Made by a program: the position numbers and the translations under genes | Notes under the pieces: model-generated | What the model was told of the DNA's origin: nothing | Database searches by the model: none | Seen by the model: the letters and a program-made list of their open reading frames with translations, nothing else | Part shown: positions 30,401 through 52,500 of the stretch, in pieces | Layout: the number at the start of each line of letters is the position of its first letter | Numbering within the stretch: the stretch's first letter is position 1 | Source of the DNA: Antedon mediterranea | Lineage: Eukaryota; Animalia; Echinodermata | Assembly: GCF_964355755.1 (NCBI RefSeq) | Contig: NC_092680.1 | Location: 15,447,045-15,511,044, forward strand | DNA length: 64,000 bases | Reading direction: 5' to 3'

Positions 30401-32520
30401 TCACCTATTCTACACTGTATGTGATATGGATACAGATTATACTGTGTATACTATATATGAATTTAAATAATAAAATTCAGCAATAACAACATATCATATT
30501 CTTCAGTTCAGGTCATAATGCCAACGTGAACACTTCCTTTTGTCCTCAACCTATCCCCTTAATGTTAATGTTGCACCACTTGCGCTGCGGATAACCAAAC
30601 TCGTCAAAGTGACGAGTTACATGTCTAGTTCTTCTTCTTTCTTTCTGTATGATTTTTGTGTAACGCTTTTCTCTGAAACTTGCAAACATAACATTTTGTT
30701 AACTATGTTAACATTTTGACATTTATGTAACGTCGTCAAGCGAAGCTTTTCATGATGTTTACAATTGCGCAACGTGACGTACGCGCGATTTAACGATTTT
30801 CTCGTATTTAACATATGTCGAAAACCAAATAACATTTCAACTTGAAACTTTGCAAAAGTTTAATTTATATCATGCGCTAACTTTCTGTTGAAAAAAAATT
30901 GCGTGTTTTACACAAAGTTACGCGCGCACGCGCATTTAAAATTTCAAAATGCGCGAAATTAATTTATAATCAACTTTCTACGCGTTTCATGTCGTTTTAA
31001 GCATGTCAAAAATTCCCACGCGTGCGCACCTTTTTACGTGTGCGGTGCGCACGTAGCATTGAAAACGTATTTTTTTCGCGTGATTTATGTTTTTCCAGCC
31101 TTTTCATGTAATTTTACCAAATTTTTAACAATTTCGACTTAAAGATACGTCATACGAGCACGTCGAATTGGACAATTTGCGCGCGTTTTTTATGAAAAGG
31201 TTAAAAAATTCGTTTAAAATATGCCTTTTTTTAAACAGTCGTAATTTCTAAACTAGACGGTCAAATTTTTGTGGATGACATATTCTGGAAGTAGATGAGT
31301 TGTAGATATCGGATCAGGTATTAATATGGCTAACCGGACATTGTGACGTCATCGTATGGCCACGCGAATATAAAATTTAGGATTTTTGTATCTTTCGTCA
31401 TAGCTCATCACATTGAATAGAGCGCATCTCCACTTATCCGTTTTCCATTTTCATCCCGATTTTGATATTGTCTAGATCAATCAACTATCTTTCGCATGAG
31501 TTAAAAATATTTTAATTTTTTTGACGTCATCATGCCTAAAAATTTAAATCACGTATGGCATCAATTTCATCTTTACAGTAAATTTTAATCTGTTATAGCT
31601 CGTAAGAATAAAATGTGATAATCACGATTACAACTTTTTCTGGAAGCTATTGGATTGCAGATATGAAATTATGTAAAAATGTTGCCAATCGGATGTTGTG
31701 ACGTCATCATATGGCCAGTTAAATAAAAAAGGTCGTATTTTCATCTTTTGCGTCATAATTCATTACATTTAAAAGAGCGCGCATCAATATTTAACGTATT
31801 CAAATTTCTTCTACACGCTAATACGTTGTTGCTGAGATAATTTCCTTTCGGAATTGCTACCTTCGCGTTTCATTTTAAAACCGTCAACATGTTAAAAATT
31901 GCAATAAATAGCGGGTCCCGTAATTTCACCTATTCTACACTGTATGTGATATGGATACAGATTATACTGTGTATACTGTATATGAATTTAAATAATAAAA
32001 TTCAGCAATAACAACAGATCATATTCTTCAGTTCAGGTCATAATGCCAACGTGAACACTTCCTTTTGTCCTCAACCTATCCCCTTAATGTTAATGTTGCA
32101 CCACTTGCGCGGCGGATAACCAAACTCGTCAAAGTGACGAGTTACATGTCTAGTCTAACCTTTTCTTTGTGAAATCCTCAGAACACAGGAGTTGGTTGGC
32201 ACATAAGGGAGACTTGTGGTAGGAACTTGTGAAATATGCAATTACAAAGCGACCACACCCAGTCACAGGACCAGTAACATTAACGTCTTCATTCCTTCAA
32301 ATTTAACCAAGTAACTGATTATAAAAAGAATAAATTGGCCAAATCAATATCGACAAATAAAGATAAACACAAATATTTATTTATTTATAATACTGTATTT
32401 ATTTCTGCACCTAAACACATTAACAATGTTCTGAGTATAAGGTGACAGTAGTAGTTCATCTTGTTTTAAGAAACCAAGAATTCATTGTTTGCTTTATGAA
32501 TATAATTTTAATATATAGGC

Positions 32521-32553
<33 letters not shown>

Positions 32554-33602
32554 AATATTTAAAATAAGGATTATAAATTTGAACTCGTCGCCGTGACCAC
32601 TTCGCTTATCAACGATAATACGCACATACATATCCTATGAACTGAAGAAAACATATTATTTATACGCTACTGAATTGTGTTTTTAGTATTGACTTAACTA
32701 GGGTCAATACCAATCTATATTCTAATTTTCAAACAGGATGACCACATCAAAATAAAACATCAAGATATTAATATAAATATAATTACACGAGCAAGAATTT
32801 AGAGAAGAAAACGTAGAAGTGAGATTCACGCTCATTGAATAATGATGAATTGTAGAAATATACCTGCTCACCATCTAGTAAAATTACTATAGCAATGTTC
32901 CCTGCAATGCCAGACGGGCAATCTGTGAGAACGAAAGCCGCTATATCCCCATGTCTGTTCTGACTTCTTGTGCAGTCAAGAAAATGTATCCAATGTTTTT
33001 CTCTCTGCGAATTGTTTTCAGAGAACGTGCGAAAAAATTTGCGAATTGGTTGGACTAATTCGATACGAGAACATTTTTAAAAATAATTGTGAAAAAATGC
33101 ATTCTATCTATACTGGCATCAGCCAACAGTGACGCCTATGAGAAAAGGACTTATGAGGAAAGAGATGAAAAACCCACTTTTTAATACAGCTGACCATATG
33201 ATAATATTATTTCCAAAACTCACATTACTTACATAATTTAAGGATGTCGATTTAAAATGGGTAAAATGTAATAATTTAGAGGATTTAAACCTTAAAATCA
33301 TAAATAAATTGATTAATTTAATTGATTGATAAATTCATTATAGCATAGACTATTTTTCGAAGCTGATATTCTGGAATAATATGCTGTGAAAAAAATTTGT
33401 TTTCTGCAATCAAATTTAAACAATCTATAGTCAAAATGTTTACATGAATTTGTATCTACAATTCAACAGATTCCACTATAAGTTAAAAACATGAGGGTCA
33501 CCTTTTATAAATGCTATAACATAAGAAAAAAATATGAAACAAGACGATGGTTATCTGCATTAAATACGGATAAGCAATTAATATTAAACCATTGAAGTTT
33601 TT

Positions 33603-35303
33603 CTACGCTTCAAAGATTACGCAGTCGCATGTTCTATAGGAACACACGCATAGAATGTAGATGTCTCGTTTGTTTCTGGATAATTTACCACTTTCGACAG
33701 TACGAGATTGATCTTCTGACAAAAGGGTTGCCCAATAAGACTTCACACCAAAACACTTATCCGCAATTTCATTGACAGCAACACGTCTTAAAAATGCTGA
33801 TGGAATTTCTTCCTCTCTCTTAAAAGTAACTGAAGGAAATTCTCCATTATGCAGCTAAAAATAAATAGTATTATAGACACAGTTATAACAATTTAGTCAT
33901 CGTCCTAGTATTGATTTTATTCAGAAAGGATTTGAGTGTTTCAAAAAATAATTGTAATCTACTATGCAACATAAGACGTACAGTAGTTAATATTTAAATA
34001 ATTCAGAAATTAAACTGATTGAAAAGTTTAGCGTAGACCTATTTATTAGGCTATTTTATAATTATATATAATACTTACCCAACCACGGTCGTTCCAATCC
34101 AAACTGTCATCCTCCCACAAGTAACATGCATTGTCCTTGTCACTGTACGCCGCAACAAGTTTCTGTAACAAAAAAAAGAACAGCGTATTATTTATTATAA
34201 TTGATAATAGTATAACTTCACTAAAAAATGGTTTAGAACGAGATTATAATATACTGATCTAATGCCTATATATAATATGATTTATCTGGCAGCATTTAAT
34301 TTACCTGTCGAAAGTCATAAATAAGCGTTCCTCCCTCAGTTACATTGTGAATCTTTTCAAAGACTACAGTTTCAACACGGTCAGAGTTCTTAGTAGTAAT
34401 TTCAATCGAGTGCTTCAGTCCATCGTCATCTGATGTTCTATAGACAATCTCCTAATAAAGCAATACATGTTTTATTCTTTAATAACAATCAATTGTTTGA
34501 CTGCTGAATCTCTTTACTGTACGTAAGTTTCTCTTTTGACCTGAATTATGATGCACTAACTAAATTCAAATTTTGGTCAACTTAGACCTAATATTTAATT
34601 TAGTTTCAAACAAAAATGTGTACTTACTGTATCGTCTACCATATCTGCATACCTGTAGTAAAGAACAACTGAACCAACTACACTGATAACCAGGACGGTA
34701 GTAACAAAACTAAGTGCAATTTGATTTCTGTTGAGTTTTGACAACTTTCTAGCAAAACTTGCCTGAAATTAAGTACAGTTCATCATTGTATATCATATGA
34801 TAGGACCTTACTGTAATTGCAAATAAAGACCAGTATAATTCACTTTTACCGATATTCATTTTAGTTAACATGATGCTATTCAATTATTTCTAAAACAACA
34901 AATGTGTATGTGTAGTTCTTTGACAATTCAATTCAAAGTTTTTTCCCACAAAAGTAGGATATTTGTTGGATTTTAGAGTATTTTAAGATTTTATTAATAA
35001 GACCTTAATGATTAAATTAGATATAATAAATTAAATACATGTAAAAAATAAATAAATTACAGCCAAAATAAACAAGACAAGACAACCTATTTGCATCTTG
35101 CTGCAGTCGGTACGATTATTTACAATTGCAATTAAATCGTATTCCAATTACGGTAAACAATAATATTAAAAGCGTTTTAAACAATTCATTCAAACTATCA
35201 TACTATTTAAACCAGACAGTTTAAATTAAAAACGTACCTCAATGTTTATTTGAGTATCGACTTCGTTTGTCTTCTTTTCTTCCGCAATCATTTTTGGAAA
35301 CAT
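33603..35303 (-). CDS. BRICHOS-domain type II membrane precursor, paralogue A (~227 aa); C-terminal peptide DIYILCVCSYRTCDCVIFEA after RNKR
   Basis: Five phase-0 exons: 35303-35238, 34762-34628 (TM segment IALSFVTTVLVISVVGSVVLYY), 34451-34305 (TLIYDFRQ), 34162-34079 (LVAAY..NACYL) and 33854-33603 (IADKCFGVKSYW..SRNKR). The conserved BRICHOS Asp and both Cys are present. Confidence 0.88.
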
Positions 35304-35575
35304 CTTGACAGTTGAATGTAGACAACACTAACTGCTAACTATGACGATTTTACGAACTTTTATACCAACGGGAAGAACAATAAATCCGGCCCACAGTAGA
35401 ACTTTGCTTTTCTAAAATGAACAATGGAGTCAACATAACAACTTTTATCGAGCATTATTATAAAACCAGGAACTATTTTCTCATTTTCTATAAAAAAAAT
35501 AAGTATTAATTAATCTATTGAACATAATGATTATGAAGACGCTATATTTACAACAACAAATATTACTGACTGTTT

Positions 35576-36466
35576 TTTTTTAATCTTATGTGGGTTCATC
35601 CCACTTTTATTTCCATACAACTGTTCTCTTTGCATATATTTTTCACTATACACTATACATATCATTATATTTACAATGTTTGTTTAATCATCTGCTTACA
35701 TATACTTATTGAAAGAGTTTTATTCATTTGTTACAAATAACATATTATCTGTAACACATTTTCATTAACAAGCTTATTTTTTTCTTACATAGTTGTTTTT
35801 GTTTTTTTCATCTACCACATTTTCATTTAACAATGCATATTCTCTGTTATACTCCTTACTTACTAAATGTTTACTGTTAACATAATATTGTTCTCATCCT
35901 TTAACATTAATATTAATATTTTTGTTCTTTAATGTTTACAAAACTTTTATTTCCAGCAGATTATCCTTCTAAAACTTCTTAAATTGTCATTTAACTTTTT
36001 TACTTTCTTCTCTTATGTGGATTCATTCCACTTTTTTTTTTACTTATTTTCTTTAAAAAAACTATTTCCATATATTATTTTGTTTATACATACATTATCA
36101 TTTAACCACATTGATTACATAGTTTCCTCTTTTTATACATATTATCTATAACACATTTTCATTAATTTATTTTTTCTTACATAGTTGTTTTTGTTTTTTT
36201 TTTTCATCTACATGCATATTTATATCATACAATTATAATACGTTTATGTTTAATAAATCCATCCCATGGGTTTGTCCCATTTTATTTTTCTTTGGATTTA
36301 TCTATGCAAACATATTTTCATTTAAACAATGCATATTCTCTGTTATACTAAATTACTTACTAACTTTTTACTGTTAACATTATATTTTCCTCATCCTTTA
36401 AGATTGATTTTTTTGATCTTTAAATGTTTACAAAATTTATTTCCAACAGATTATCCTTTTTTGCAT
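35576..36466 (-). mobile_element. ~890-bp retro-type insertion with a 15-bp TSD upstream of BRICHOS A
   Basis: Flanked by TATTACTGACTGTTT at 35561 and 36467. It begins with a T run (minus-strand polyA), is absent at the paralogous site near 47240, and has an internal ~430-bp duplication. Confidence 0.65.
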
Positions 36467-37649
36467 TATTACTGACTGTTTATTGACACTTTAATGCATA
36501 CAGTTTCTTAAACTCACTAAATGTTATTAGATTGTTCTATTATTTTTTGACACAGCGCAGCATTTCAAATGTATAATAGCCATTAGTATTGTCAAGAAAC
36601 ATGATATAGCTTACGTACTAATTAAATTGAACAACACTGAAGTTTATTCAACTTAACTGCATTATTATGGAACAAATTAAACACAACTTATTATTTTGTT
36701 TAACTAAATACAAATGTCAACATAACAGAAAATAAGAAAACTATTGTTTAATGATGCTTTACTCTTAGTATTTATTTACGCACATATTCAAGAAGTACCA
36801 AAATGTATCCAGTAGCAACGGATTTACTTGAAAACAAAGCATACCAGAGTATATATGAAGTGTATGCAAACTCACATGATTATCATGGCACAATGAACAT
36901 CAATAATAATTGAACGAAACAAAATTATTATTATTATTATTATTAGTGTTATTATTATTAGGCCTATTAAATTAAATAATTACAAATTCTATAAATTGCA
37001 AAAACATCTGGGCCTACATATAAACGTAGTAGAAAGCATTACTGCTTGAAGAAATAAAGATACACTTCACAAAACACTGCTTCAATACGATTGAACTCTT
37101 ATCCGTATTAGATCGGGCGCTCAGAGAATTTATTCATGGGAAAAGTCATCAAAAGGTGTGTTTGATGGGCTGATTATGTAGATATATGACAAAGATTTAA
37201 TAATAAATATTGCTGACGGGTCATATCCTGTAATTTACTGGGGAAACCAAATAAAAGGGGTAAACATTGATTTACTTATGTGAAAAGCTACACATATAAA
37301 AGTTTTTGGACATTGTTCCCATATTATGTGTATGCAATGTTAAAACAGCAATGACAGCAATTTTATCCTGTAAGTTGCCCAAGACAGTAGCCTCAAGTGA
37401 CCACTCAACAATTGTTCATGTCAAGAGCCACGCGGCTAATTTCTTTTGCATTGTAATTGGGTGCACAAAAATACCATTGACACAGCACAAAAATACCATT
37501 GACAGCAACTTTATCCTGTAAGTGGCCCCAGACAGTAGCCCAAAAATTCCCGCCAAAGCAGATTTAATTAGGCGATGAACCACATGGCAAGTTCCTTTTA
37601 CACTATTACGCTTTGGAATATACAAGAATACAGTAACTTTATCCTGTAA

Positions 37650-38008
37650 AGGCTGTTTTCCTGTCGACGTTATTCGACGCTATCGTTAACAATAAAGCGT
37701 GGTTCCCACTAGCGACGCAACACAAGGACGTAACGCAACGCAATTGAATTGACCAATCACAAGCGATGGCTTATTCGCTTGTGATTGCTAACTGTCTATA
37801 ACTTCGCTTGTCATTGGTTAAAACGCTTGCGTTGCGTTTACTTCATTGCGTTACGTTCTAGTGGGAACCAAGCTTAATCGGCGATCTTCTACGGGAAAAG
37901 GTACTTGCTATCGTTATTATTTTAACTTGATCGGTTTCAAACGATCGTCGTTGAACTGTTGGCGATCAACGACGATAGCGTCGAATAACGTCGACAGGAA
38001 CACAGGCT
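37650..38008. mobile_element. PIF/Harbinger-like MITE containing a nested second MITE (37696-37874)
   Basis: Outer TIRs TTCCTGTCGACGTTATTCGACGCTATCGT with TAA TSD; the empty site CCTGTAAGTTGCCTCAG is seen at ~48370. Inner TIRs AGC.TGGTTCCCACTAG with TAA TSD. Confidence 0.85.
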
Positions 38009-38165
38009 TAAGTTGCCTCAGACACTAAGTAGCCCAACATTTTCCGATTCCAACCCCTACAAGATTTATCACTCTAAAACTAGATTCAATAGGCTATCAA
38101 AACAATTTCTATGATTTATAGATCATAAATAATATCAAACTCTTTATTAGAAATATCAGTGAGAT

Positions 38166-41100
38166 CAAGAGAAGATATTGAGCCTCTTCTTTCAGTGTTA
38201 GTAATGAAACAATTGTAAATATCTATCAAAATCATTTTCATTATTTTTTTTTTGCTGATAAAGGGCTTAATTTCAACTTTACACTTTTTTCAGTCTAAAT
38301 TCCCAGTGGACCACCATTGGTAAGTAATCTAAAAATAAGAACAAACAAATAATTAATAACTAACAATAATTGTTTGTTTTGGGATTTTGTGTTACAGTTT
38401 CTTATCAGTCACATCTTTAAATAACACATTTTGAAATAATAATACGGAGTCAGATAGCATAAATTATAACTTTAATTATGGTGTTTCAATTCAACTTCTG
38501 CTTTTTATTTCCGTGACACATCAACATTATCCACCATATACTCACTGATCTTGATATGGTAAAAACAGTTTGAACTACTTACTACTAAATGGCAAAAGCA
38601 ATGATTTAATATACAGAATTTTGCAAAAAGTTAAGAAGTACATCTTGTTGTTTTATTTGATTTCTGCTACACGTCAATTTAACCAAATAATACTATTCGT
38701 CGTCAATTTGAAAAGCCATTATTTGGCCCATGCAACACATTCATAGTAATTTTCAAATATACGTAATTTTCTTCTACTTTTTTTTTTTATAGAAAAATCG
38801 TAGGATAACGATTTCCTGTTAGAAGAATATTCATCTAAAACAAAACATATTATTCACCCCATCCATATAGCAGTGACAAGCGTTTTAACATTAAAATGTC
38901 CCTCCTAACATTCTTTTTCTTTAATGTTAACTCTGTATAGTGTAACGGTAAATAATTTCTTGTATAGGAAAAATCTCATCAAATAAACAGAAAACAAAAG
39001 CAACAAAACAAAAGAAATAAGGGCCTTGAGCATTTTGGTGGATGTGTGGTGCGCTTAACAAATATTATTATAAGGAAGTATTGGCGTAGAATAAAACAGA
39101 TAATTATAGACCGAAGAAATTCAATACAAATAGCACTTGAACAAATCCGTCAGTGAAGCTGTAAATACGCCAATCGAAACAAGGAAATAACATTTTAATA
39201 TTGTCACTCAAATATATTATTATTACTGTAGCTTGTGTTTCTCACATTCATCAAGAGAAGATTTTATTGAGCGTCTTCTTTCAGTGTTAGTAAATATCAA
39301 TCAATATGATTGTCATATTATTGTTGCTGATAAAGGACTTAATTTTAACTTTACACTTGTTCAGCAATTTTAGCTAAAGAAACAAGTCTCAAGCCGAGTG
39401 GACCACCATTGGTGTGTAATCCAAAAAAAAAAAAAGAACAAACAATTATTAATTAAAAAAACCAATAATAATAGCTCTACAGCTCACTATGTCGGTCGGT
39501 TGGTCGGTCGGTAAACACTAACTCAAATTTGAGCGCGACTGCAGCCATGTATATGGCCTTGTTCAGTTTGTTTTGGGTTTTTGTGTTACACTTATTCTCA
39601 TCAGTCACATCTTGAAATAAAATTATGAAATATAATACGGAGTTGTAAAATATTTTATCAGATGACTATAGATAACATAAATTATAACTTTAATTGTGGT
39701 GTTTCTATTCAACTTCTGTTTTTTATTTCCGCGACATATCAACATTATCCACCGTATACTCACTGATCTTTATATGGAAAGACAGGTTGACCTACTTACT
39801 ATACTGAATGGCAAAAGCAATGATTGAATATACAGAATGTTGCAAAAAGTTAAGAAGTTCATCTTGTTCCCTTGGGATTTCTGCTACACGTTAATTTAAC
39901 AAAATATTACTCTTCGTCGTCAATTTGAAAGGTTATTATTTAACGGCCCACGCAACACACTCACAGTAATTTTCAAAATTACGTAATTTTCTTCTACGGT
40001 GTTTTTTTTATAGAAAAATCGCAGGATAACGAGTGTTAGAAGAATATTCATCTAAAACAAAACATATTATTCACCTCATTCATATAGCAGTGACAGTTTT
40101 AACATTAAATGTTCCCTCCTAACATTCTTTTTCTTTAATGTTAACTCTATATAGTGTAACGGTAAATAATTTCTTGTATAGGAAAAATCTCATCAAATAA
40201 ACAGAAAACAAAAGCAACAAAACAAAAGAAATAAGCGCCTTGAGCATTTTGGTGGATATGTGGTGCGCTTAACAAATATTATTATAAGGAAGTATTAGCG
40301 TAGAATAAAACAGATAATTATAGACCGAAGAAATTCAATACAAATAGAACTTGAACAAATCCGTCAGTGAAGCTGTAAATACACCAATCAAAACAAGGAA
40401 ATAACATTTTAATATTGTCACTCAAATATATTATTATTACTGTAGCTTGTGTTTCTCGCATTCATCAAGAGAAGATTTTATTGAGCGTCTTCTTTCAGTG
40501 TTAGTAAATATCAATCAATATGATTGTCATATTATTGTTGCTGATAAAGAACTTAATTTTAACTTTACACTTGTTCAGCAATTTTAGCTAAAGAAACAAG
40601 TCTCAAGCCGAGTGGACCACCATTGGTCTGTAATCCAAAAAAAAAAAGAACAAACAATTATTAATAAAAAAAAAACCCAATAATAATAGCTCTACAGCTC
40701 ACTATGTCGGTCGGTTGGTCGGTCGGTAAGCACTAACTCAAATTTGAGCGCGACTGCAGCCTTGTATATGGCCTTGTTCAGTTTGTTTTGGGTTTTTGTG
40801 TTACACTTATTCTTATGTTTGTTTGTTTGTTTTTATTTTTTGCTCATATAAAAATCAACAAGGTACAGTCAGTCACATCTTGAAATAAAATTATGAAATA
40901 TAATACGGAGTTGTAAAATATTTTATCAGATGACTAAATAGATAACATAAATTATAACTTTAATTATGGTGTTTCTACTGTATTCAACTTCTGCTTTTAT
41001 TTCCGTGACATATCAACATTATCCACCGTATACTCACTGATCTTGATATGGTAAAAACAGTTTGAACTACTTACTACTGAATGGCAACAGCAATGATTTA

Positions 41101-41180
41101 ATATACAGAATGTTGCAAAAAGTTAAGAAGTTCATCTTTCTGCTACACGTTAATTTAACAAAATATTACTCTTCGTCGTA
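38166..41180. repeat. ~1.1-1.2-kb tandem triplication of the RNase T2 upstream region
   Basis: CAAGAGAAGAT..TTGAGC.TCTTCTTTCAGTGTTAGT at 38166, 39252 and 40466. The paralogue has a single copy (48530-49550). Confidence 0.85.
39470..39559 (+). mobile_element. ~90-bp mini Helentron/DINE-like insert (second copy at ~40682-40774)
   Basis: (GTCG)n microsatellite and a terminal hairpin GCCATGTATATGGC followed by CTTG. Absent at the homologous sites 15115, 38370 and 48750. Confidence 0.55.
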
Positions 41181-41191
41181 AAAAATCAGTT

Positions 41192-41487
41192 AATTGAGGG
41201 CACTATGCTTTGCCAAAATACGCAAATCATGCCAAAATACGCAAATTGAGGGCGCTATGCTTTGCCAAAATACGAAAATCATGCCAAAACAAAATACGCA
41301 AATTGAGGGCGCTATGGTTTGCCAAAATACGCAAATAATGTCAAAATACGCAAATTGAGGGCGCTATGCTTTGCCAAAATACGAAAATCATGCCAAAATA
41401 CGCAAATTGAGGGCGCTATGCTTTGCCAAAATACGAAAATCATGCCAAAATACGCAAATTTAGGGCGCTATGCTTTGCCAAAATACA
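41192..41487. repeat. 52-bp minisatellite, about 5.6 units
   Basis: Unit AATTGAGGGCGCTATGCTTTGCCAAAATACGAAAATCATGCCAAAATACGCA. Confidence 0.9.
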
Positions 41488-43713
41488 GAGCCATATATAT
41501 ATAAAGAGTTACGACATTAAATACGCGAATCGAAACAAGGAAATAACATTTTAATATTGTCACTCAAATATATTATTACTTTAGCTTGTGTTTCTCGCAT
41601 TCATCAACATAACTAAAGATGTCTGCTAAATACTTTATTGGCCTGCTAATATTTGTTGTTGTTAGTCCGAGTAACGCTTGGGTGTATCAATGTAAAGCTT
41701 ACCCAACAACAAAGTAAGTGTTATTTTTATCGTTACTTAATCTAATCACGAATTGGTCGAATTTGATGATTCGGCACATTTAAGAAGTTTACCAAGGAGG
41801 TATAGTTATATTTGTATCATTATAATATGGTTAAATGAACTGAACTTAAATAGGAAGAACAAATTAAATTCGATTTTTAAGCAAGCGGTTAAGATTATAC
41901 AGTAGGCACCGATGTTAAATTGTTAGAACACTTATGTAATGAAATGATGGCTAAAAAACTTAATTGTATTATGTCTGATGTTACTCACCCTGTCTTTGAT
42001 ACCCTTGTTACCTGATTCAATCAGTTATCAGGTTGTATAATAGAGATTTCAAACGCTAGTCCGCTAATTATTACTCATGTTTCTGTTACATTTCTCTGTT
42101 TATTATTTATTTTAATCTGGTAATTTATGTTATATTCATACTAACTCGAGTGTACCTAAGAAACCATATCTCATAACTGTATATTTTTGCCGTATCGTAT
42201 CGTATCGTATTTAGAAAATAGGTCAGCCATCTTGAGATTCTTTATCATAACAACTAATCTCGTTGAGACCGAACCAAATCGGTATCCATTTCAGAAATAT
42301 TTTATAATTCCTAATATTTTGTATTTGAAGTTGTAATTTGTAGGCCTAAATAACTTCTTATTGTAAGATGATGTAATCCATCTTCTTCTTTTGTGCATTG
42401 CCCAATGAGGGATGAATACAGATATAATTATACTGATACTGATAATATAATTAATATATACAATTGATGGTTTTCAGGAAGTGTGATCATTTCATGTTTT
42501 CTCAACTATGGCCTCCGACATTTTGTAAAATTGAAAAAGTAAGTACCGGGAGTAAAGTAGCCTAACTAACGTTTTTGTTACTACTAATATGAAGAAAAAC
42601 AAAAGTGAATGTTCTTTCTATTTAACAGTGTAGCATTCCGACTGGTGTGAACACGTGGACTATTTATGGACTCTGGTAATGTAAATTATTCATCTATACA
42701 TACTAATTTATTAATTTGTTTGGGTAGTATACATTAACAGGGGGAATTACCACCTATCTGATAGGACAGTGATTAATTCACTATTGGTAATCCTTTGCCA
42801 CATTGCCTAAAGACATAAAATAAAAATAAATAAAAACAGATAATTATAAAGAAAGTGATGGATTCTTCATTTCTTACCTTAATTCAGTACCGTACCTTAC
42901 ATTATATTTTTCCGGCAGGCCCGATGCTGCTAACTATTACCTTTCGTTCTGTTATCCAAAACAAGTGTTCGATCCCAATTCAATCACGGTAAGAAACTAT
43001 ATTATAATTATTTAGACTATTTGCATATGATGCACAATCGTCCAATCACATAACCTGAATCTATGTACGTAGTGTAACGGATATGGATAAATGTAATAAT
43101 TTTAACGTTTAACCCGAAGGACAATTTTTTGCGTTAGTAGGATTGGTCACTTGGTGTTGCAGTAATGATTGTTTATTAATTGTCTGATTGTTTAAAAACA
43201 AATTAATCAATCCTACTATTATACCCATCATAGAGTTTAGCGCCGGAACTGGTTAATAATGCCTACATCATGCCATGATCTTTTAACAAATCACAGAACC
43301 TCACAAACATCACTCACTATCTAAAAGCATCACAACAAAATCAGTCATACTATAAACTCATTTATTTATATTATATTATAACTTTCAAAATGCGATCAGA
43401 GGATCCATCACATTGTGATCGAACAATTGCGGCGCAGTTTACGTCATCTAAGTGAAACCAAACTTTACCCCGAAGAAAGTATTGCAGTGTCCTTACGTCT
43501 GGAGAACCAGAGTTTACGGTTGTTACGTAACAATGCTCATTTTTGCTGTCAAGTAAGCATAGCTTAGGATGGCAAATAATATATCAAAGTATTTAATTAA
43601 CAATAGGCAGCACATCCGCAAATAATATACCTTTAAAAAACATAAAAACAATAACTTCCTGGTCATTCATTAACTGTAGTCTTGTGGACAAATTGCGTCA
43701 CTCATGTTTTGTA

Positions 43714-43765
43714 ATTCACCTGAAGAGTGTGACCAGTGGCCATACGAAACAAGCGTGTAGTGAAT
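43714..43765 (+). ncRNA. Minimal type I hammerhead ribozyme (Penelope-like element type)
   Basis: ATTCAC-CTGAAGA-GTGTGACC(AGT)GGCCATAC-GAAA-CAAGCGTG-TA-GTGAAT: 6-bp stem I, intact core and a GUA cleavage triplet. Confidence 0.75.
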
Positions 43766-43942
43766 AAATATGAAGTCACCTTAGTTCATCTCGTATCGTT
43801 TTTTTTTTTATTTAGCTCTACCTCAGTGTATCAAGCACTCTATCCAGGTGATCTGAATTATTTATATATACCATGTCCCGCATACCTGGCTCAGCCTATA
43901 TATTGTGCCAGTTCTGCGGTACATTTTATTTCGAAACCTGAG

Positions 43943-43985
43943 CTGCACTGACGAGATCTAATAAGATCGAAACAGTACTCTGCAG
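43943..43985 (+). ncRNA. Damaged hammerhead ribozyme, second family (copy at 51491-51533)
   Basis: CTGCA-CTGACGA-GATCT(AATA)AGATC-GAAA-CAGTAC-TC-TGCAG. Stem III is 2 nt shorter than in the 45314 copy. Confidence 0.55.
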
Positions 43986-44017
43986 ATTGGATATAGATAT
44001 ATATATATATACATATA

Positions 44018-44190
44018 TGGTCTAATGGTTAGGACATCTGCATATCAAGCAGGCGGTCCGAGTTCGAGTCTCGGTTGGGGAGACATTCTCACAGATTTCC
44101 TCATCTTTATCGTTTAAAATTAATTAATTAAATGTCATTATATCACCGGGCGGTTTAGAATTACTGTTCTTTGCCTGATTTGTTTTTATA
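44018..44190 (+). mobile_element. tRNA-derived SINE (copy at ~51566-51740; degenerate copy at ~53085-53230)
   Basis: A box TGGTCTAATGG and B box AGTTCGAGTC, followed by a non-tRNA tail. Confidence 0.65.
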
Positions 44191-45313
44191 TATATAATAC
44201 TGTATATATGAAATGTTGTAATTTAGTCGTGTAACTTTTAAATTAACTTTGAAGCTAAAACAGATTTTTATGTTTTCAATTGGGTGTGCTAGGACATCAC
44301 GGATAAGTTGCAACTCGTATGGCCATCGTTAAAATACAACGAAGAAAATATGTATTTCTGGTAAAGACATACTTTTAATTGTGCTTAATATTTGTTTTAT
44401 TTATGGATAATTCATAATATTCATGTTTTAATATTACAATGTGTATAGAGTTGTTATGTGTGTTTTTCATTTACGTGGTCTGTTTTAATTGTAAATGAAC
44501 AAGTAAATTAAAATGAAAAAATAAACAAAATAAAAATAAACAAATAGGGCCTATACTGTGAATTAGTCAAAACAAATTGTGTGTCGTCCGAACCTGTGAG
44601 CAATTCCACCCAGATATACTTATTCTATTTGTTGGTATACGCCATGGTATCATTGACATTCTATAATTTATTCTTGAATGTGACGACCAGTTAGAGAAGA
44701 AATAAATAAATATTTATTGTCTTATATTTCAACGATATACAAAATAAAACAAATGAAACTTGTTAGTCTCTAATATTGTCAAGGGTCACTTCTGGTCATC
44801 ATCCTCGTCACAATAATCATCATCTAGCCCTTTTCTTCGTGGGAATTCCTTCTAGGAAACACAGTTGTTGGCACTTAAGCATTATACTTGTAGAGGGAAC
44901 GGTGAATAATTCAATTACGGAGCGACCCAACGACCACATTCGGTAAAGAACCAAAATACAGAAACTTCTTAACTTAAACCAAAACTTTAAAATAAAAAAG
45001 TGAATACATTGGTCAACTCAATTTCGACAAGATACAAACTCACAATAAAATATCAACAACATTATTTATTTCTGCCAACAAAAACACGATGCTCTGATAA
45101 TGAGTATAATATATAATAATGCATGTTGTTTAGTAGAGTACTCTTCATTTCGAAACGGTGCATTTTTGTTGTGAATACTATTAGCATTTTGCAAAGCACG
45201 CTCGTTGAGCTTGTGCACTCTTTGTGTTCATAATCAGTGTACCATGTCCTGCATACCTGGCTCAGCCTATATATTGTGCCAGTTCTGCGGTACATTTCAT
45301 TTCGAAACATGGG

Positions 45314-45358
45314 CTGCACTGACGAGATCTAATAAGATCGAAACAGTGCTGTCTGCAG
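45314..45358 (+). ncRNA. Minimal type I hammerhead ribozyme, intact
   Basis: CTGCA-CTGACGA-GATCT(AATA)AGATC-GAAA-CAGTGCTG-TC-TGCAG, with GUC cleavage after 45353. It lies in a repeat shared with 43870-43995. Confidence 0.8.
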
Positions 45359-45505
45359 ATTGGATAATAATGTATGTATAATGTTTTTGTATTCATCTGT
45401 GTAATTTAAGTATAGAATTAACCGAATGAAATAAGCAAAAGTTCTTTTATGAACATGAGCAGTTATTACGAAAAAAAATAGTTGAATCATCAAGTTTATA
45501 CTGTA

Positions 45506-46998
45506 CTACTTAATATGGATGATTACAACAACTACGCATTCGCGATAGTAACACACGCAGACATAGATAACGTCTCGTTTGTTTCGAGATAATTCATCAC
45601 TTTCGGCAGTAGGGGACTGATCTTCTGACAAACGGGTTGCCCAGTAAGTCTTCACACCAGAACAATTATCGGCAATTTTATCGACAACAACACGTCTCAG
45701 AAGCGATGATGGAATTTCTTCCTCTCTCTCAAACGTAACTGATGGAAATTCTCCATTATTTAGCTAAAACGATATTATAAAAATGTTAACAATTTCATGC
45801 CGAGTGGTCGCCATTCTGAATTGAAAGGAGTGAATTGGAATCCATCGTATCATATTTGAATTGGGTCATTGTTTCTCAAATAAAAAACATGTTTACATTT
45901 GGACTACAAAATTTGGAATGTTGACGTTTTATCTTAGGGGCTTCATTTGTGTACCAAATTTAAACCAAATACATGACGTGACGATGTACTGTAATTCATT
46001 TCGTTCAATTGAGGTGGAATGAGTAGTTGATGGCTTTAATAATTAAAAAAGGTGTGTTTTATACCTATTTAATACTAAATAAATGACTCCTCAAAACTAG
46101 GGCCTATACTTACCCAACCACGGTCGTTCCAATCCAAACTGTCATCCTCCCACACATAACACGCATTATCACTGTCACTGTACGCCGCAACAAGTTTCTA
46201 TAAAAAAAGAGCGTATTATTATTAAATGATTATACAAAGTAGAATGAGTTTATGATCCTTATCTCTATTAATTTACCTGCCGAAAGTCATAAATAAGCGT
46301 TCCTCCCTCAGTTACATTGTGAATCTTTTCAAAGAATACAGTTTCAACACGGTCAGATATTTTAGTAGTAATTTCAATCGAGTGCTTCAGTCCATTGTCT
46401 TCTGATGTTCTATAGATAATCTCCTAATAAATAAATAATTCATGTTCTATTATTTAATAACAATCAATTGTTTGACTGAATCGCTATACTGTACGTGGCT
46501 GACCGTACTGACCTGAATTATGATGCACTTACTAATTTTGTTTACTTCAAATTTTGTTAAACTTAATATTTAATTTTGCTTCAAATAAAATATTCGTACT
46601 TACTGTATCGTCTACCATATCTGCATACCTGTAGTAAAGAACAACTGAACCAACTACACTGATAACCAGGACGGTAGTAACCAAAATAAGTGCAATTTGA
46701 TTTCTGTTGAGTTTCGACATCTTTCTAGGAAGACTTTCCTGAAATTAAGTATACAGTTCTCTTGTATTTTATGATAGTACAACCTTCTGTAACTGCAGTC
46801 GGTATGATTATTTACAAATGCAATTAAATTGTATTCCAATTACGGTAAACAATAATATTGCAAGCGTTTCTAACGATTCATTCAAACTATCATACTTGTA
46901 TTTAAACCAGACAGTTTAAATTGAGAACGTACCTTAATGTTTATTTGAGTATCGTCTTCGTTTGTCTTCTTTTCTTTCGTAATCGTTTTTGGAAACAT
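45506..46998 (-). CDS. BRICHOS-domain type II membrane precursor, paralogue B (~229 aa); C-terminal peptide DVIYVCVCYYRECVVVVIIHIK after RNKR
   Basis: Exons 46998-46933, 46738-46604, 46423-46277, 46197-46114 and 45763-45506. Open frame, same architecture as paralogue A. Confidence 0.88.
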
Positions 46999-49564
46999 CT
47001 TGACAGTTGAATATAGACAACACTAACTGCTAACTATGACGATTTCACGAACTTTTATACCAACGGGAAGCACAATAAATCCGGTTTACCATAGAACTTT
47101 GCTTTTCAGAAATTAACAATGGATTCAACATTATTATATAACGAGGAACTATATTATCATTGTTCTGTAAAGAAATAAGTAATATCTTATTGAACATAAT
47201 ATATGAAGATGCTATATTTACAACAACAAACATTATTGATTGTTTATTGACGCTTTAATGCATCATCCATACAGTTTCTTAAACTCACTAAATTGTATTA
47301 GATTTAATTGTTCTATTTGTTTTGGCACAGCGCAGCATTTCAAATGTTATAATAGGTTATTATAGTAGTGTGAAGAAACATGATACGTACGGTACTAGTT
47401 AAATTGAACAACACTGAAGTTTGTCCAACCTAACGGCATTATTATGGAACAAATTAAACACAACTTATTTTTTTAACTAAATACAAATATTAACATAACA
47501 GAAAATAAGAAGAGCACTATTATTTAATAATGCTTTATTCTTAGTATTTATTTAGGCACATATTCAAGATGTACCAACATGTATCTAATAGCAACGGCTT
47601 TAATTGAAAACAAAGCATAACAGAGTATAATTATGAAGTGTATGCAAACTCACATGATTATTATGGCACAAAAATGAATATCAATAATAATTTAACAAAA
47701 CAAAATTATTATTATTATTAGATTATAATTTATAAATAATTACAAATTCTATACATTACAAAAACATTTACATATAAGCGTAGTAGAAAGCATTATTGCT
47801 GGAAGAAATAGATACACTTCACAAAACACTGTTACCAATACGATTGAACCCTTATTCGTAATAGACCGGGCGCCCATAGAATGTATTCATGGGAAAAGCC
47901 AGAAGGTTTGATGGGCTGATTATTGAGATATATGACCAAGATTCGGGTCCTATCCTGTAAATTTACTCCGGGGACACCAAATAAGAGGGGTAAAAAATGG
48001 ATTTAATTATTTGAAAAGTCACACGGATAAACGTTGTTGGACATATGTGTATACAATGTTAAAACAGAAATGGCAGCAACTTTATCCTATAAGTTGCCCG
48101 AGAGGCAGTACCCCAAGTGACCACTCAAACATTGTGTTTTTCATGTCAAGAGCCACGCACCTGATTTCTTTTGTATTGTAACTGTTACACATTGGGATGC
48201 ACAAAAATACCATTGACAACAATTTTATCCTGTAAGTTGCCCCAGACTGTAGCCCTAAAATGCCCGCCATAACAGATTTAACCATGCAAATATAAACACG
48301 GCAAATTCCTGTTACATTGTAACTATTACCCTTTGGGATATACGAGAATACCATTGGCAGCAACTTTATCCTGTAAGTTGCCTCAGACACTAAGTAGCCC
48401 AACAATTTCCGATTCCGACCCCTACAAGATTTAATAACTCGAAAACTAGATTAAATTGGCTATCAAAACAATATCTATGATCTATAGATCATATATTATA
48501 TCGAACGCTTTATTAGAAATATCAGTGAGATCAAGAGAAGATATTGAGCCTCTTCTTTGAGTGCTAGTAATGAAACAATTGTAAATATCTATAAAAATGA
48601 TTGTCATTATTTTTTGGCTGATAAGGGGCTTAATTTCAACTTTAAACTTTTTTTCAGCAATTTCAGGTAAAGAAACAAGTCTAGGCCTAGTGGACTACCA
48701 TTGGTGTCTAATCCAAAAATAAGAACAAACAATTATTAGTAACAAACAATAATTGTTCAGTTTGTTTTGGGTTTTTGTGTTACAAGTTTTTATCAGTCAC
48801 ATTTTTAAATAAAATTATGAAATATAATACGGAATGGTAAAATATTTTATCCGCTGACCAAATATAGATAACATATTAAAACTTTACTTGTGGTGTTTCT
48901 ATTCAACTTCTACTTTTTATTTCCGCGACATATCAACATTATCCACTATACTCACTGACCTTGATATGGTAAAAACAATTTGAACTACTTACTACTGTGG
49001 CGAAAGGAATGGTTTAATATACAGAATTTTATTTTGGAAAATGTTAAGAAGTTCATCTTGTTTCCTTGTGATTTCTGCTACACATTGATTTAACCAAATT
49101 TACTCTTCGTCGTCAATTTGAAAGGCCATTTTTTGGCCCATGCAAACACATTCATGGTAACTTTCAAATATAGGCTACGTTATTTTCCTCTACGGTGTTT
49201 TTTTTTAAATAGAATTATTCCCTCCTATCATTGTTCTACTTTATGTTAACGCTATATTGTGTAACGGTAAACAATGTGAACATATTATGAACAATCTCAT
49301 AAAATAAAAAGAAAACGACTACAAACAAAAGAAATAAGCGCCTTTGAGCATTTTGGTGAACATGTGATGCGCTTAACAAATATTATTATAAGCCTGGAGG
49401 TATGGAAGTATTGGCGCAGAATAACATAATATAGATCTGAAAAAATCCGCCTATGAGTGAAACTGAAATACGCCATTCGAAACAAGGAAATAACATTTTA
49501 ATATTGTCACTCATTAATATACTACTGTAGCTTGTGTTTCTCGCATTCATCAACGTAACTAAAG

Positions 49565-52500
49565 ATGCCTGCTACATACTTTATTGGCCTGCTAATATTT
49601 GTTGTTGTTATTCCGAGTAACGCTTGGGTGTATCAATGTAAAGCTTACCCAACAACAAAGTAAGTGTTATTTTTATCGTTACTTAATCATCATCATCATC
49701 TTGGTCGAATGTGATGATTCGGCACATTTAGGAAGTTTACCAAGGAGGTATAGTCATATTTATAATATAGTTCAGCTATCTTGAGATTCTTTATCATAAC
49801 AAATAATTAATCTCGATGACCGATCCCAATCGATATCAATTCAGGAATATTTAATAATTCCTAAGAGTTTTATATTTAATATTATTTGAAATTTTAATTT
49901 GTAGGCCTACTTCTTATTGTAAGATGATGTAATCCATCTCCTTCTTTTGCCCCATGAGGGATGAATAACGATATAATTATACTGATACTGATAATATAAT
50001 TAATATATACAATTGATGGTTTTCAGGAAGTGTGATCATTTCACGTTTTCTCAACTATGGCCTCCGACATTTTGTAAAATTGAAAAAGTAAGTACCGGGA
50101 GTAAAGTAGCCTAACTAACGTTTTTGTTACTACTAATATGAAGAAAAACAAAAGTGAATGTTCTTTCTATTTAACAGTGTAGCATTCCGACTGGTGTGAA
50201 CACGTGGACTATCCATGGACTCTGGTAATGTAAATTATTCATCTATACATACTAATTTGTTAATTTGTTTGGGTAGTATACATTAACAGGGGGATTACCA
50301 CCTATCTGATAGGACAGTGATTAATTCACTATTGGTAATCCTTTGCCACATTGCCTAAAGACATAAAATAAAAATAAATAAAAACAGATAATTATAAAGA
50401 AAATGATGGATTCTTCATTTCTTACCTTAATTTAGTACCGTACGTACTTTACATTATATTTCTTCCGGCAGGCCCGATGCTCCTAACTATTACCTTTCGT
50501 TCTGTTATCCAAAACAAGTGTTCGATCCCAATTCAATCACGGTAAGAAACTATATTATAATTATTTAGACTATTTGCATATGATGCACAATCGTCCAATC
50601 ACATAACCTGAATCTATGAACGTAGTGTAACGGATATGGATAAATGTAATAATTTTAACGTTTAACCCGAAGGACAATTTTTTGCGTTAGTAGGATTGGT
50701 CACTTGGTGTTGCAGTAATGATTGTTTATTAATTGTCTTTAAAAACAAATTAATCAATCCTACTATTATATCCATCATAGAGTTTAGCGCCGAAACTGGT
50801 TAATAATGCCTACATCATGCCATAGTCTTTTAACAAATCACAGAACCTCACAAACATCACTCACTATCTAAAAGCATCACACCAAAATCAGTCCTACTAT
50901 AAACTCATTTATTTATATTATATTATAACTTTCAAAATGCGATCGGATGATCCATCACATTCTGATTGAACAATTGCGGCGCAGTTTACGTCATCTAAGT
51001 GAAACCAAACTTTACCCCGAAGAAAGTATTGCAGTGTCCTTACGTCTGGAGAACCAGAGTTTACGGTTGTTACGTAACAATGCTCATTTTTGCTGTCAAG
51101 TAAGCATAGCTTAAGATGGCAAATAATATATATAAGTATTTAATTAACAATAGGCAGCACATCCGTAAATAATATACCTTTAAAAAACATAAAAACAATA
51201 ACTTCCTGGTCATTCATTAACTGTAGTCTTGTGGACAATTTGCGTCACTCATGGTTTGTAATTCACCTGAAGAGTGTGACCACTGGCCATACGAAACAAG
51301 CGTGTAGTGAATAAATATGAAGTCACCTTAGTTCATCTCGTATCGTTTTTTTTTATTATTTAGCTCTACCTCAGTGTATCAAGCACTCTATCCAGGTGAT
51401 CTGAATTATTTATATATACCATGTCCCGCATACCTGGCTCAGCCTATATATTGTGCCAGTTCTGCGGTACATTTTATTTCGAAACCTGAGCTGCACTGAC
51501 GAGATCTAATAAGATCGAAACAGTACTCTGAAGATTGGATATAGATATATATATATATACATATATGGTCTAATGGTTAGGACATCTGCATATCAAGCAG
51601 GCGGTCCGAGTTCGAGTCTCGGTTGGGGCGACATTCTCACAGATTTCCTCATCTTTATCGTTTAAAATTAATTAATTAAATGTCATTATATCACCGGGCG
51701 GTTTAGAATTACTGTTCTTTGCCTGATTGGTTTTTATATATATAATACTGTATATATGAAATGTTGTAATTTAGTCGTGTAACTTTTAAATTAACTTTGA
51801 AGCTAAAACAGATTTTTATGTTTTCAATTGGGTGTGCTAGGACATCACGGATAAGTTGCAACTCGTATGGCCATCGTTAAAATACAACGAAGAAAATATG
51901 TATTTCTGGTAAAGACATACTTTTAATTGTGCTTAATATTTGTTTTATTTATGGATAATTCATAATATTCATGTTTTAATATTACAATGTGTATAGAGTT
52001 GTTATGTGTGTTTTTCATTTACGTGGTCTGTTTTAATTGTAAATGAACAAGTAAATTAAAATGAAAAAATAAACAAAATAAAAATAAACAAATAAGGCCT
52101 ATACTATGAATAAAATAAAACAACTAGAGCATTCTCAAACTGAGTGACGTTGTTGATGAAATGTTACTGATTTTTAAAGGATTTACTGTTTATTTTTATA
52201 ATTTTTTTTCCTTTAGGCAAAACGAATGGTGCAAACACGGAAGTTGTGCGCTTAACTGCACGACTGAAACAGATTCAGAGAGAAATTATTTCAACAAGAC
52301 GGTTGATTTAAATAAAAAGTTTAGTATTGATAAGTAAGTTCTATTACAGGAAATTCTTATACTATAAACTTTGGTATTGAATCATTACAGAGCCAAACAT
52401 ATCTTATATATTATGATCATTTTAGACAAATGGCAAATCTTAATTACTTCTGACAAAATATCGTCATCGTAGACTAGATTACATGTAGAGTGCATGTTTT

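What the first reader, a model, noticed from the sequence alone, without database searches (positions are those of the whole stretch)
33603..46998. Two BRICHOS precursors predicted to release beta-hairpin peptides with protegrin Cys spacing
Seen: both genes, missed by the ORF track, encode a cytosolic tail, TM segment, BRICHOS domain, SRNKR and a short peptide. Peptide A, DIYILCVCSYRTCDCVIFEA, has C-x-C-x4-C-x-C spacing. Known: this is the spacing of protegrin-1 (LCYCRRRFCVCV), and BRICHOS precursors that release hairpin antimicrobial peptides are known mainly from polychaetes (arenicin, alvinellacin, capitellacin). Unlike those peptides, these are not cationic (A net -2, B about neutral) and are rich in V/I/Y, like the amyloid-prone BRICHOS clients SP-C and Bri23. 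Inference: a possibly undescribed family of BRICHOS-chaperoned, non-cationic host-defence or amyloid-forming hairpin peptides.
Basis: partly seen in the sequence, partly recalled or inferred. Interest (0 to 1): 0.85.

Follow-up and report, generated by a model that had tools for sequence, protein, structure and literature searches.

The report
Feather-star chaperoned non-cationic hairpin peptides
Two neighbouring feather-star genes encode precursors, predicted to be membrane-anchored, in which a predicted BRICHOS folding-helper domain precedes a short, greasy, neutral-to-acidic peptide that is likely cut off; this is the usual layout of that chaperone family, and the peptides likely do not work as protegrin-type antibiotics.

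Summary
Both genes are real: five exons each, minus strand, intact, matching NCBI's 'uncharacterized' Antedon mediterranea proteins (227 and 229 aa). All four splice junctions of gene A lie in one contig of a probable RNA run. BRICHOS identity is likely but below Pfam's cut-off: the family's invariant Asp and two Cys are present, and proSP-C BRICHOS is the top fold match, at modest scores. Correction to the title: only peptide A has four Cys; B has three. A Cys-bridged hairpin behind a furin site is the default BRICHOS tail, so the 'protegrin spacing' tells little, and both peptides fail the cationic criterion of beta-hairpin antimicrobials (net -2 and 0). Three more paralogues exist in this species, and none was found elsewhere. 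All five tails are at most +1, they differ far more than the domain, and two lack a furin site. Best reading: a divergent, lineage-restricted BRICHOS subfamily processed like Bri2, releasing aggregation-prone, non-lytic hairpins; function untested. The scan noted BRICHOS arrays with variable tails before, in a brachiopod and in molluscs (unchecked notes).

The parts
35238..35303 (-). Gene A exon 1 (coding part; residues 1-22, predicted cytosolic tail)
   Evidence: joint 34761/35237 in X1 contig
34628..34762 (-). Gene A exon 2 (residues 23-67; basic flank and hydrophobic segment 37-55 at about 34664-34720)
   Evidence: joints
34305..34451 (-). Gene A exon 3 (residues 68-116; linker strands and start of BRICHOS domain, invariant Asp113)
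34079..34162 (-). Gene A exon 4 (residues 117-144; first BRICHOS Cys129)
33603..33854 (-). Gene A exon 5 coding part (residues 145-227; second BRICHOS Cys178, acidic linker, furin site, peptide A, stop)
33666..33677 (-). RNKR furin-type site of gene A
   Evidence: cleavage inferred
33606..33665 (-). Predicted mature peptide A, 20 aa, 4 Cys (gaps 1-4-1), net -2, GRAVY 1.06
33493..33602 (-). 3' untranslated stretch of gene A covered by the spliced contig
   Evidence: X1 contig piece 33493-33854
46933..46998 (-). Gene B exon 1 (residues 1-22)
46604..46738 (-). Gene B exon 2 (residues 23-67, hydrophobic segment)
46277..46423 (-). Gene B exon 3 (residues 68-116, Asp113)
46114..46197 (-). Gene B exon 4 (residues 117-144, Cys129)
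45506..45763 (-). Gene B exon 5 coding part (residues 145-229; Cys178, furin site, peptide B, stop)
45575..45586 (-). RNKR furin-type site of gene B
   Evidence: cleavage inferred
45509..45574 (-). Predicted mature peptide B, 22 aa, 3 Cys (gaps 1-4), net 0, GRAVY 1.47
33636..44575 (.). Left copy of the tandem duplication: gene A plus a truncated RNase T2 gene on the + strand
45545..52123 (.). Right copy of the tandem duplication: gene B plus the first part of an RNase T2 gene that continues beyond the duplicated block

Best explanation
Genes A and B are tandem duplicates in a small feather-star family of divergent, likely BRICHOS-domain precursors that are predicted to be processed like human Bri2: anchored by one membrane helix, with the domain likely holding its own sticky tail until a furin-type protease likely cuts after RNKR and frees a 20-22 residue hydrophobic hairpin that would self-associate into beta-sheet rather than lyse bacteria as cationic hairpins do. 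Shown: gene structure, splicing of A, the order of parts, invariant Asp/Cys/Cys, furin motif, tail composition and charge, the duplication and three further paralogues. Predicted: BRICHOS fold, type II topology, two-strand tail. Inferred from the family: binding of the tail by the domain, cleavage, disulfides (Cys6-Cys15 and Cys8-Cys13 in A; one bond and one free Cys in B, which could link two peptides), aggregation. About 0.85 for BRICHOS homology, about 0.7 for cleavage and release, about 0.55 for the whole statement; the physiological use of the freed peptide (surface or mucus material, microbe trapping) is a guess at about 0.25.
For: Exon models equal database proteins; four junctions in one X1 contig, absent from DNA run X5. 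5 of 5 paralogues match PF04089 at E<=1, best 0.0015, over the same profile start in the four shown singly. Asp and first Cys are 16 apart in 5 of 5, as D144-C160 in ITM2A (PMC2751770). Atlas: 10 of the 10 best named hits are BRICHOS clusters, first 0.94 with 212 of 256 features, and again for the luminal part alone. The luminal model (mean pLDDT 59, core blocks 68-83) has proSP-C BRICHOS 2yad first by Foldseek (prob 0.97, E 0.06) and by VIA-align (Z 6.4, rmsd 2.7, 68 aligned; Z 7.0, rmsd 3.0, 75 aligned). Positive-inside flanks. Both faces of the hairpin implied by A's Cys register are mainly hydrophobic; V/I/Y/F/L/W/C make up 65% and 77% of A and B. All five tails are net -4 to +1 with at most one Arg. 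The domain is conserved between A and B (pN 0.064, pS 0.224).
Against: No Pfam match reaches the gathering score of 25 (13 to 19.2 bits). Sequence search of solved structures found no BRICHOS chain. Fold scores are middling: Z 7.0 is tied with LolA at 6.6 and no Foldseek row has E<=0.001. The tail is under pLDDT 50 in the model, so the hairpin geometry is weakly predicted. The Atlas warns that shuffled proteins reach 0.9 in 4-10 of 100 cases. Two paralogues (P0003, P0007) have no RxxR before the tail, so release is not family-wide. The ITM2 pattern of acidic domain with basic tail (PMC2751770) is absent: domain region -11, tail -2. No peptide, cleavage, aggregation or activity was measured.
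Confidence: 0.55

Rival explanations
1. The working product is the BRICHOS domain itself, shed or surface-displayed as an extracellular anti-amyloid chaperone (as Bri2 BRICHOS and gastrokine-1); the tail is only a removable self-client that drifts as long as it stays beta-prone.
For: Domain conserved while the tail is not: A vs B 95/110 against 8/20 identical; A or B vs the other three 50-58/110 against 1-4 of 16-18. Tail pN/pS about 0.8 against about 0.3 in the domain, not above 1. Cys number and furin site vary among paralogues. Gastrokine-1 blocks curli amyloid and biofilm (PMC12919244, preprint, abstract only). BRICHOS domains are released by proteolysis (PMC9627735, passage).
Against: RNKR is kept intact in A and B and a polybasic site in P0004; the tails of P0003 and P0007 are as conserved as their domains (16/17 and 100/110); no shedding site was identified.
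Confidence: 0.25
2. The peptides are host-defence peptides of the polychaete BRICHOS-AMP kind that kill microbes directly, despite lacking positive charge (for example at low pH, with metal ions, or after oligomerising).
For: Same precursor layout as polychaete BRICHOS-AMPs, five of which are transmembrane in Heteromastus (PMC10745061); tandem duplication with exchange between copies as in alvinellacin (PMC5431198 passages); fast-changing tail with in-frame indels; length 20-22 and nested Cys fit the size range of the class (PMC13001179); a TBK1-like kinase and RNase T2 lie nearby, which is only suggestive.
Against: The review's 27 beta-hairpin AMP families are all net +1 to +8, Arg-rich and poor in Asp/Glu; A is -2 with three acidic residues, B is 0, P0004's tail -4. 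No C-terminal Gly for amidation. Protegrin spacing in 1 of 5 tails. No excess of replacement changes in the tail.
Confidence: 0.13
3. Gene B is a passenger of a segmental duplication and is decaying; only A (and the paralogues elsewhere) work.
For: B has lost one Cys of the four; the duplicated block also carries a truncated RNase T2 with its catalytic His replaced; in residues 1-100 replacement changes are as frequent as silent ones (few sites).
Against: B has an open frame, canonical splice sites, the furin site and all three invariant residues; pN/pS about 0.3 in the domain; three-Cys tails also occur in P0003 and P0007; the truncated RNase T2 goes with A, not B.
Confidence: 0.12
4. The luminal domain is not BRICHOS but another open beta-sheet carrier fold (LolA/ependymin-like), and the tail resemblance is incidental.
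For: LolA Z 6.6 against BRICHOS 7.0, ependymin-related proteins Z 5.0-5.5; no Pfam threshold reached.
Against: LolA and ependymin rows have 5-12% identity and rmsd mostly 3.3-4.9 against 19% and 2.7-3.0 for 2yad; Pfam, Atlas and the invariant residues all point to BRICHOS.
Confidence: 0.05

Closest known systems
ITM2B/Bri2 and the ITM2 families (BRICHOS superfamily, Pfam PF04089; PMC9714404, PMC2751770)
   Same: Predicted type II membrane precursor, linker strands, Asp/Cys/Cys domain, furin site, Cys-containing beta-prone tail of about 20 residues (Bri2 releases 23). ITM2-named clusters are ranks 2, 3 and 6 (whole protein) and rank 1 (luminal part) in the Atlas.
   Different: No detectable sequence hit to ITM2 proteins; domain Cys 49 apart against 59 in ITM2A; tail Cys 9 and 5 apart against 17; tail not basic; tails vary strongly between paralogues, whereas ITM2 tails are well conserved. 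Orthology not tested by a tree.
Polychaete BRICHOS-AMP precursors (arenicin, alvinellacin, capitellacin, nicomicin, HfBRI peptides; PMC10745061, PMC6265681, PMC5431198)
   Same: Precursor order, basic cleavage site, 20-22 residue two-strand tail with up to two disulfides, multigene family with tandem copies; some HfBRI precursors are transmembrane.
   Different: Those tested peptides are cationic and membrane-lytic; these are net -2 and 0. In alvinellacin the peptide is invariant and the prodomain varies; here it is the reverse. HfBRI-75 and -91 are non-cationic but long, with 11 Cys, and untested.
Protegrins (porcine beta-hairpin AMPs; PMC13001179)
   Different: Protegrins are Arg-rich and amidated, and come from a cathelin precursor (recalled); A has one Arg, three acidic residues and no amidation Gly; B and the other three tails have other spacings. 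Convergence at most.
proSP-C BRICHOS domain (PDB 2yad)
   Same: Best structural match in three searches; 18-22% identity over the aligned part.
   Different: proSP-C's client is its N-terminal membrane segment and it has no C-terminal tail; scores are modest.
Hedlund 2009 'divergent group' (one echinoderm and one amphioxus sequence) and Chen 2022 groups I/II
   Same: Invertebrate BRICHOS proteins of unknown function; echinoderm BRICHOS proteins are on record.

Membership tests
BRICHOS superfamily (Hedlund 2009; Sanchez-Pulido and Ponting 2022) | Invariant Asp and two Cys in the domain | tested here: met
   Asp113, Cys129, Cys178 in A and B, equivalent in 5 of 5 paralogues, Asp-Cys gap 16 as D144-C160 in ITM2A
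BRICHOS superfamily (Hedlund 2009; Sanchez-Pulido and Ponting 2022) | Order hydrophobic segment, linker, domain, C-terminal region | tested here: met
BRICHOS superfamily (Hedlund 2009; Sanchez-Pulido and Ponting 2022) | Convertase site followed by a Cys-containing two-strand tail | tested here: met
   RNKR 204-207 then tail in A and B; two strands in both models, at pLDDT under 50; motif only, cleavage not shown
BRICHOS superfamily (Hedlund 2009; Sanchez-Pulido and Ponting 2022) | BRICHOS fold | tested here: inconclusive
   2yad first in three searches, Z 6.4-7.0, rmsd 2.7-3.0, 68-75 aligned, tied with LolA Z 6.6; Foldseek E 0.06
BRICHOS superfamily (Hedlund 2009; Sanchez-Pulido and Ponting 2022) | Chaperone activity on its own beta-prone client | not testable with these tools
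   needs recombinant protein
Pfam PF04089 as curated | Gathering score of 25 bits | tested here: not met
   13, 18.9, 15.5 and 19.2 bits for P0001-P0004; P0007 matches at E<=1. Filed as a likely remote homologue, not a Pfam member
beta-hairpin antimicrobial peptides, including polychaete BRICHOS-AMPs | Net charge +1 to +8, Arg enrichment | tested here: not met
   A -2, B 0, one Arg each; criterion from PMC13001179
beta-hairpin antimicrobial peptides, including polychaete BRICHOS-AMPs | 11-25 residues with at least one Cys pair three or more apart | tested here: met
   20 and 22 aa, inner Cys pair with four residues between
beta-hairpin antimicrobial peptides, including polychaete BRICHOS-AMPs | Antimicrobial activity | not testable with these tools
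   no assay
beta-hairpin antimicrobial peptides, including polychaete BRICHOS-AMPs | BRICHOS domain groups with the AMP clade of Chen 2022 | not tested
   no reference sequences came from any tool, so no tree was built
   present in A, absent in B, P0003, P0004, P0007
Protegrins | Arg-rich, C-terminally amidated | tested here: not met
   one Arg; tails end FEA and HIK with no Gly; criterion in PMC13001179
ITM2/Bri2 orthologues | Acidic domain paired with a basic, well-conserved tail whose Cys are 17 apart | tested here: not met
   tail net -2 and 0, Cys 9 and 5 apart, tails 8/20 identical between A and B; criteria in PMC2751770
ITM2/Bri2 orthologues | Sequence or tree orthology | tested here: inconclusive
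   no ITM2 hit; ITM2-named Atlas clusters near the top; no tree

The most novel reading that the evidence does not exclude
A crinoid family of BRICHOS-delivered, charge-free effector peptides: the chaperone carries a deliberately amyloid-forming hairpin to the body surface, where cleavage lets it polymerise into nets that trap microbes or build the mucus coat, with paralogues tuning assembly through Cys number (A closed by two bonds, B left with a free Cys to dimerise) and two paralogues keeping the tail latched to the domain through extra Cys instead of releasing it. This would be a BRICHOS-chaperoned functional amyloid and the first BRICHOS-derived defence peptides reported from an echinoderm, as far as my searches reach.
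Probability: 0.15. Interest if true: 0.72.

Novelty: new member of a known kind. Interest (0 to 1): 0.36.

Why it matters
It extends BRICHOS precursors with variable peptide cargo to crinoids, where one 2025 review lists no antimicrobial peptide at all, and shows that such families sit below Pfam's threshold and stay 'uncharacterized'. The five natural domain-tail pairs, with near-constant domains and tails of two, three or four Cys, cleavable or not, are a compact test set for how a BRICHOS domain recognises its client. If the freed peptides assemble on purpose, it would be a chaperone-delivered functional amyloid. As it stands the layout is ordinary for the family and no function is shown.

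Tried and rejected
No whole genome is held for this window, so the positions of P0003, P0004 and P0007 are unknown beyond sharing a 22,273,604-base record length and being outside the window. Pfam on eight single exons gave no BRICHOS row (B exon 4 was off by one base there and, corrected). Full-length AlphaFold model: mean pLDDT 40.6, Foldseek matches meaningless. Sequence searches of solved structures with P0001, two alignments and the A tail: no relevant hit; chains under 20 residues, such as protegrin-1, are not in that library. P0005 and P0006 were dropped as repeat-driven false hits (CARDB and a repeat protein). Metagenome scan: 175 pattern matches, 0 confirmed. Complex prediction of domain (62-192) with tail (198-227): no answer, score 0.01, alignment not used, untested for peptides; no evidence either way. 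No run on record as RNA was listed and no spliced B-type contig was listed in X1; that is no evidence on B's expression. Positive selection on the tail: pN 0.343 against pS 0.412 over 14 codons, alignment ambiguous, so not claimed. Frameshift origin of B's tail: codon alignments need only in-frame indels; which of A's last two Cys B lost depends on the gap cost. The protegrin sequence was not found in the text of PMC13001179. No tree against ITM2, BRICD5, gastrokine or arenicin precursors, since no tool returned those sequences. Paper supplements were not read; the trees in Chen 2022 (ESI Fig. S9) and Hedlund 2009 (Fig. 1) may hold related echinoderm sequences.

Full report
The observation. 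Six-frame translation finds two exons ending in SRNKR plus a short Cys-containing tail and a stop, both on the minus strand. Reading the DNA gives two five-exon genes with phase-0, GT-AG introns: A at 35303-35238, 34762-34628, 34451-34305, 34162-34079, 33854-33603 and B at 46998-46933, 46738-46604, 46423-46277, 46197-46114, 45763-45506. A search with exon 5 of A returned 1 protein of 43 candidates, P0001, named by its sources an uncharacterized protein of Antedon mediterranea, a feather star; P0002 followed (2 of 196 candidates). The exon models equal P0001 (XP_071965114.1, 227 aa) and P0002 (XP_071964707.1, 229 aa) letter for letter. Peptide B is 22 aa, net 0, and has only three Cys, so the title is wrong for B. 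The patterns are not chance (1 and 2 observed, 0 in each of 40 rough shuffles).

Expression. Five runs hold the gene A stretch; none is on record as RNA, one (X1) is guessed to be. One 768-base X1 contig joins all four junctions of A at the predicted places, X1 has no depth in the bins that lie wholly in introns, and the DNA run X5 shows none of these joints. That is one contig from one study. No B-type spliced contig was listed, which says nothing on B's expression.

Is it BRICHOS? Pfam alone says 'not at threshold': 13, 18.9, 15.5 and 19.2 bits for P0001-P0004 against 25, though PF04089 is the only family matched by 5 of 5 paralogues at E<=1. The three residues that Hedlund 2009 found invariant (PMC2751770, parts 1-2 of 3 read) are present in 5 of 5, with the same 16-residue Asp-Cys gap as ITM2A. 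The Atlas puts BRICHOS clusters in all ten best named places for the whole protein (first 0.94, 212 of 256 features, a mostly molluscan cluster with 45% BRICHOS) and for the luminal part (first 0.89), with the tool's caution that shuffled proteins sometimes do as well. The full-length model failed (pLDDT 40.6). The luminal model reached 59 overall, with most core blocks at 68-83 and the tail under 50; its best match is proSP-C BRICHOS 2yad by Foldseek (prob 0.97, E 0.06, no row at E<=0.001) and by VIA-align among 48,161 chains (Z 6.4, rmsd 2.7, 68 aligned) and among 990 Foldseek candidates (Z 7.0, rmsd 3.0, 75 aligned, tied with LolA at 6.6). Sequence searches of solved structures found nothing. 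Each line is weak; they agree, and I put homology at about 0.85. All five features used to admit OAF to the family (PMC9714404, parts 1-2 of 3 read) are present at sequence level.

The family. A scan of 1.84 billion representatives gave 5 proteins at E<=0.001: P0001, P0003, P0004 and two repeat-driven false hits that I dropped. A profile search gave 5 of 7,997 scored candidates, adding P0007; all five are Antedon mediterranea 'uncharacterized' proteins on a record of the same length, and only A and B lie in the window. No relative was found in another species, but these searches are word-limited or carry harsh E-values, so 'lineage-restricted' is provisional. Domains are 50-58 of 110 identical between A or B and the others, tails 1-4 of 16-18; A and B share 95/110 and 8/20; P0003 and P0007 share 100/110 and 16/17. 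Tail Cys gaps are 1-4-1, 1-4, 8, 6-1 and 6-1, and net charges -2, 0, -4, 0 and +1 (for P0003 and P0007 the tail start is my choice, after the last Arg). P0003 and P0007 have no RxxR before the tail and carry two extra luminal Cys outside it; P0004 has one. An unchecked note on clam genes (e1-9905047) suggested reading such extra Cys as a latch; I confirmed only that the residues exist here.

The duplication. About 33.6-44.6 kb repeats as 45.5-52.1 kb. Each copy holds a BRICHOS gene head-to-head with an RNase T2 gene; the right one continues to the second catalytic-site exon (PF00445, E 6e-8), the left one stops at 44575 and has Tyr for the first catalytic His (motif recalled). Identity per 250 aligned columns rises from 53% at the peptide and 3' end through 68-78% (exons 4-5 with intron 4) and 83-92% (5' half, spacer) to 97-100% in the RNase part. 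I infer an older duplication with later unequal exchange that spared the peptide end. Between A and B the domain shows pN 0.064 and pS 0.224, the first 14 tail codons 0.343 and 0.412, residues 1-100 low values with pN at or above pS. So the domain is constrained, the tail changes fast with in-frame indels, and positive selection is not shown.

How it most likely works. Basic residues before and acidic after one hydrophobic segment predict type II topology. By analogy with Bri2 and proSP-C (PMC9714404; PMC9627735, passages and section 10), the domain would hold the beta-prone tail during folding, a furin-type enzyme would cut after RNKR, and a hairpin would be freed. In A the Cys register pairs 6-15 and 8-13 and puts I/C/C/I and Y/L/V/V/F on the two faces, so both are greasy and the ends are acidic; such a peptide should stack on itself rather than seek anionic membranes. 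B is greasier still and keeps a free Cys. All of this is inference; no cleavage, binding, disulfide or aggregate was observed. What the freed peptide does is open: self-assembly at a secretory surface is my pick, closely followed by the reading that the domain is the product, as for gastrokine-1 against curli (PMC12919244, preprint abstract only).

The antimicrobial reading. The precursor layout matches polychaete BRICHOS-AMPs, some of them transmembrane (PMC10745061, parts 1-2 of 8; PMC6265681 and PMC5431198, passages). But that layout, including a Cys-bridged tail, is common to nearly all BRICHOS families, and a 2026 review finds every one of 27 beta-hairpin AMP families at net +1 to +8, Arg-rich and poor in Asp/Glu (PMC13001179, passages and abstract). 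A and B fail that. I give direct killing about 0.13.

Novelty. In the held library BRICHOS with Antedon gave 0 papers, with crinoid 3 reviews (in the two I opened, the word occurs only in a list of classes), with echinoderm 15, and searches added no paper whose title or abstract start concerns an echinoderm BRICHOS protein; most subscription journals are not covered. Echinoderm BRICHOS sequences are on record (Hedlund's divergent group; OAF), and I could not compare them. The echinoderm section of PMC11767717 lists five AMP families, none from crinoids and none described as BRICHOS-derived. The scan's own unchecked notes describe BRICHOS arrays with variable tails in a brachiopod and several molluscs, none like this sequence, so local expansions of this kind seem to be common in marine invertebrates. 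Verdict: real genes, likely a divergent and undescribed BRICHOS subfamily, ordinary in layout; new member of a known kind; interest 0.36.

Noticed in passing
window 41619-44575 (+) and 49565-53434 (+): Two RNase T2 copies. The right one has the first catalytic motif with His (50214) and the second-motif exon at 52218-52334 (PF00445); the left one has Tyr in place of that His (42665) and ends before the second motif, so it is likely a dead partial duplicate, yet 97-100% identical over most of its last 2 kb.
   Followed up: partly
window 1560-12843 (+): Exons of a TBK1/IKK-epsilon-like kinase (Pkinase and TBK1_ULD matches).
   Followed up: partly
window 16449-32154: Ten tandem units of about 1.52 kb, eight 96-100% and two about 83% like the last unit; one long frame tested had no Pfam match. 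Lies just beyond the 3' end of gene A.
   Followed up: partly
paralogues P0003 and P0007 (outside the window): No RxxR before the tail, three Cys in the tail and two extra luminal Cys (66 and 173 in P0003): the tail may stay attached and disulfide-latched to the domain. P0004 has a polybasic site, a net -4 tail and one extra Cys.
   Followed up: partly
window 33631 and 33794: One contig of DNA run X5 carries a change at 33631 that turns Thr219 (position 12 of peptide A) into Ile, and 33794 gives Phe165Leu: a possible second allele with a still greasier peptide. The three X1 differences that I translated are silent.
   Followed up: partly
window 45665-45670 region (gene B exon 5): Gene B gains an N-glycosylation sequon (Asn177-Cys-Ser) directly beside the second BRICHOS Cys; all five paralogues share another sequon (NVT) just before the domain's conserved stretch.
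   Followed up: no
window 38372-41182: A 1.2-kb block is itself repeated in tandem in the spacer of the left copy only.
   Followed up: no
window 55724-56119 (+) and about 60090-60200 (+): A RING-finger frame followed by a Thr/Pro repeat (zf-RING_2, E 5.7e-5, under cut-off), and a first exon that looks like a ULK3-type kinase start (recalled resemblance; no Pfam match).
   Followed up: no
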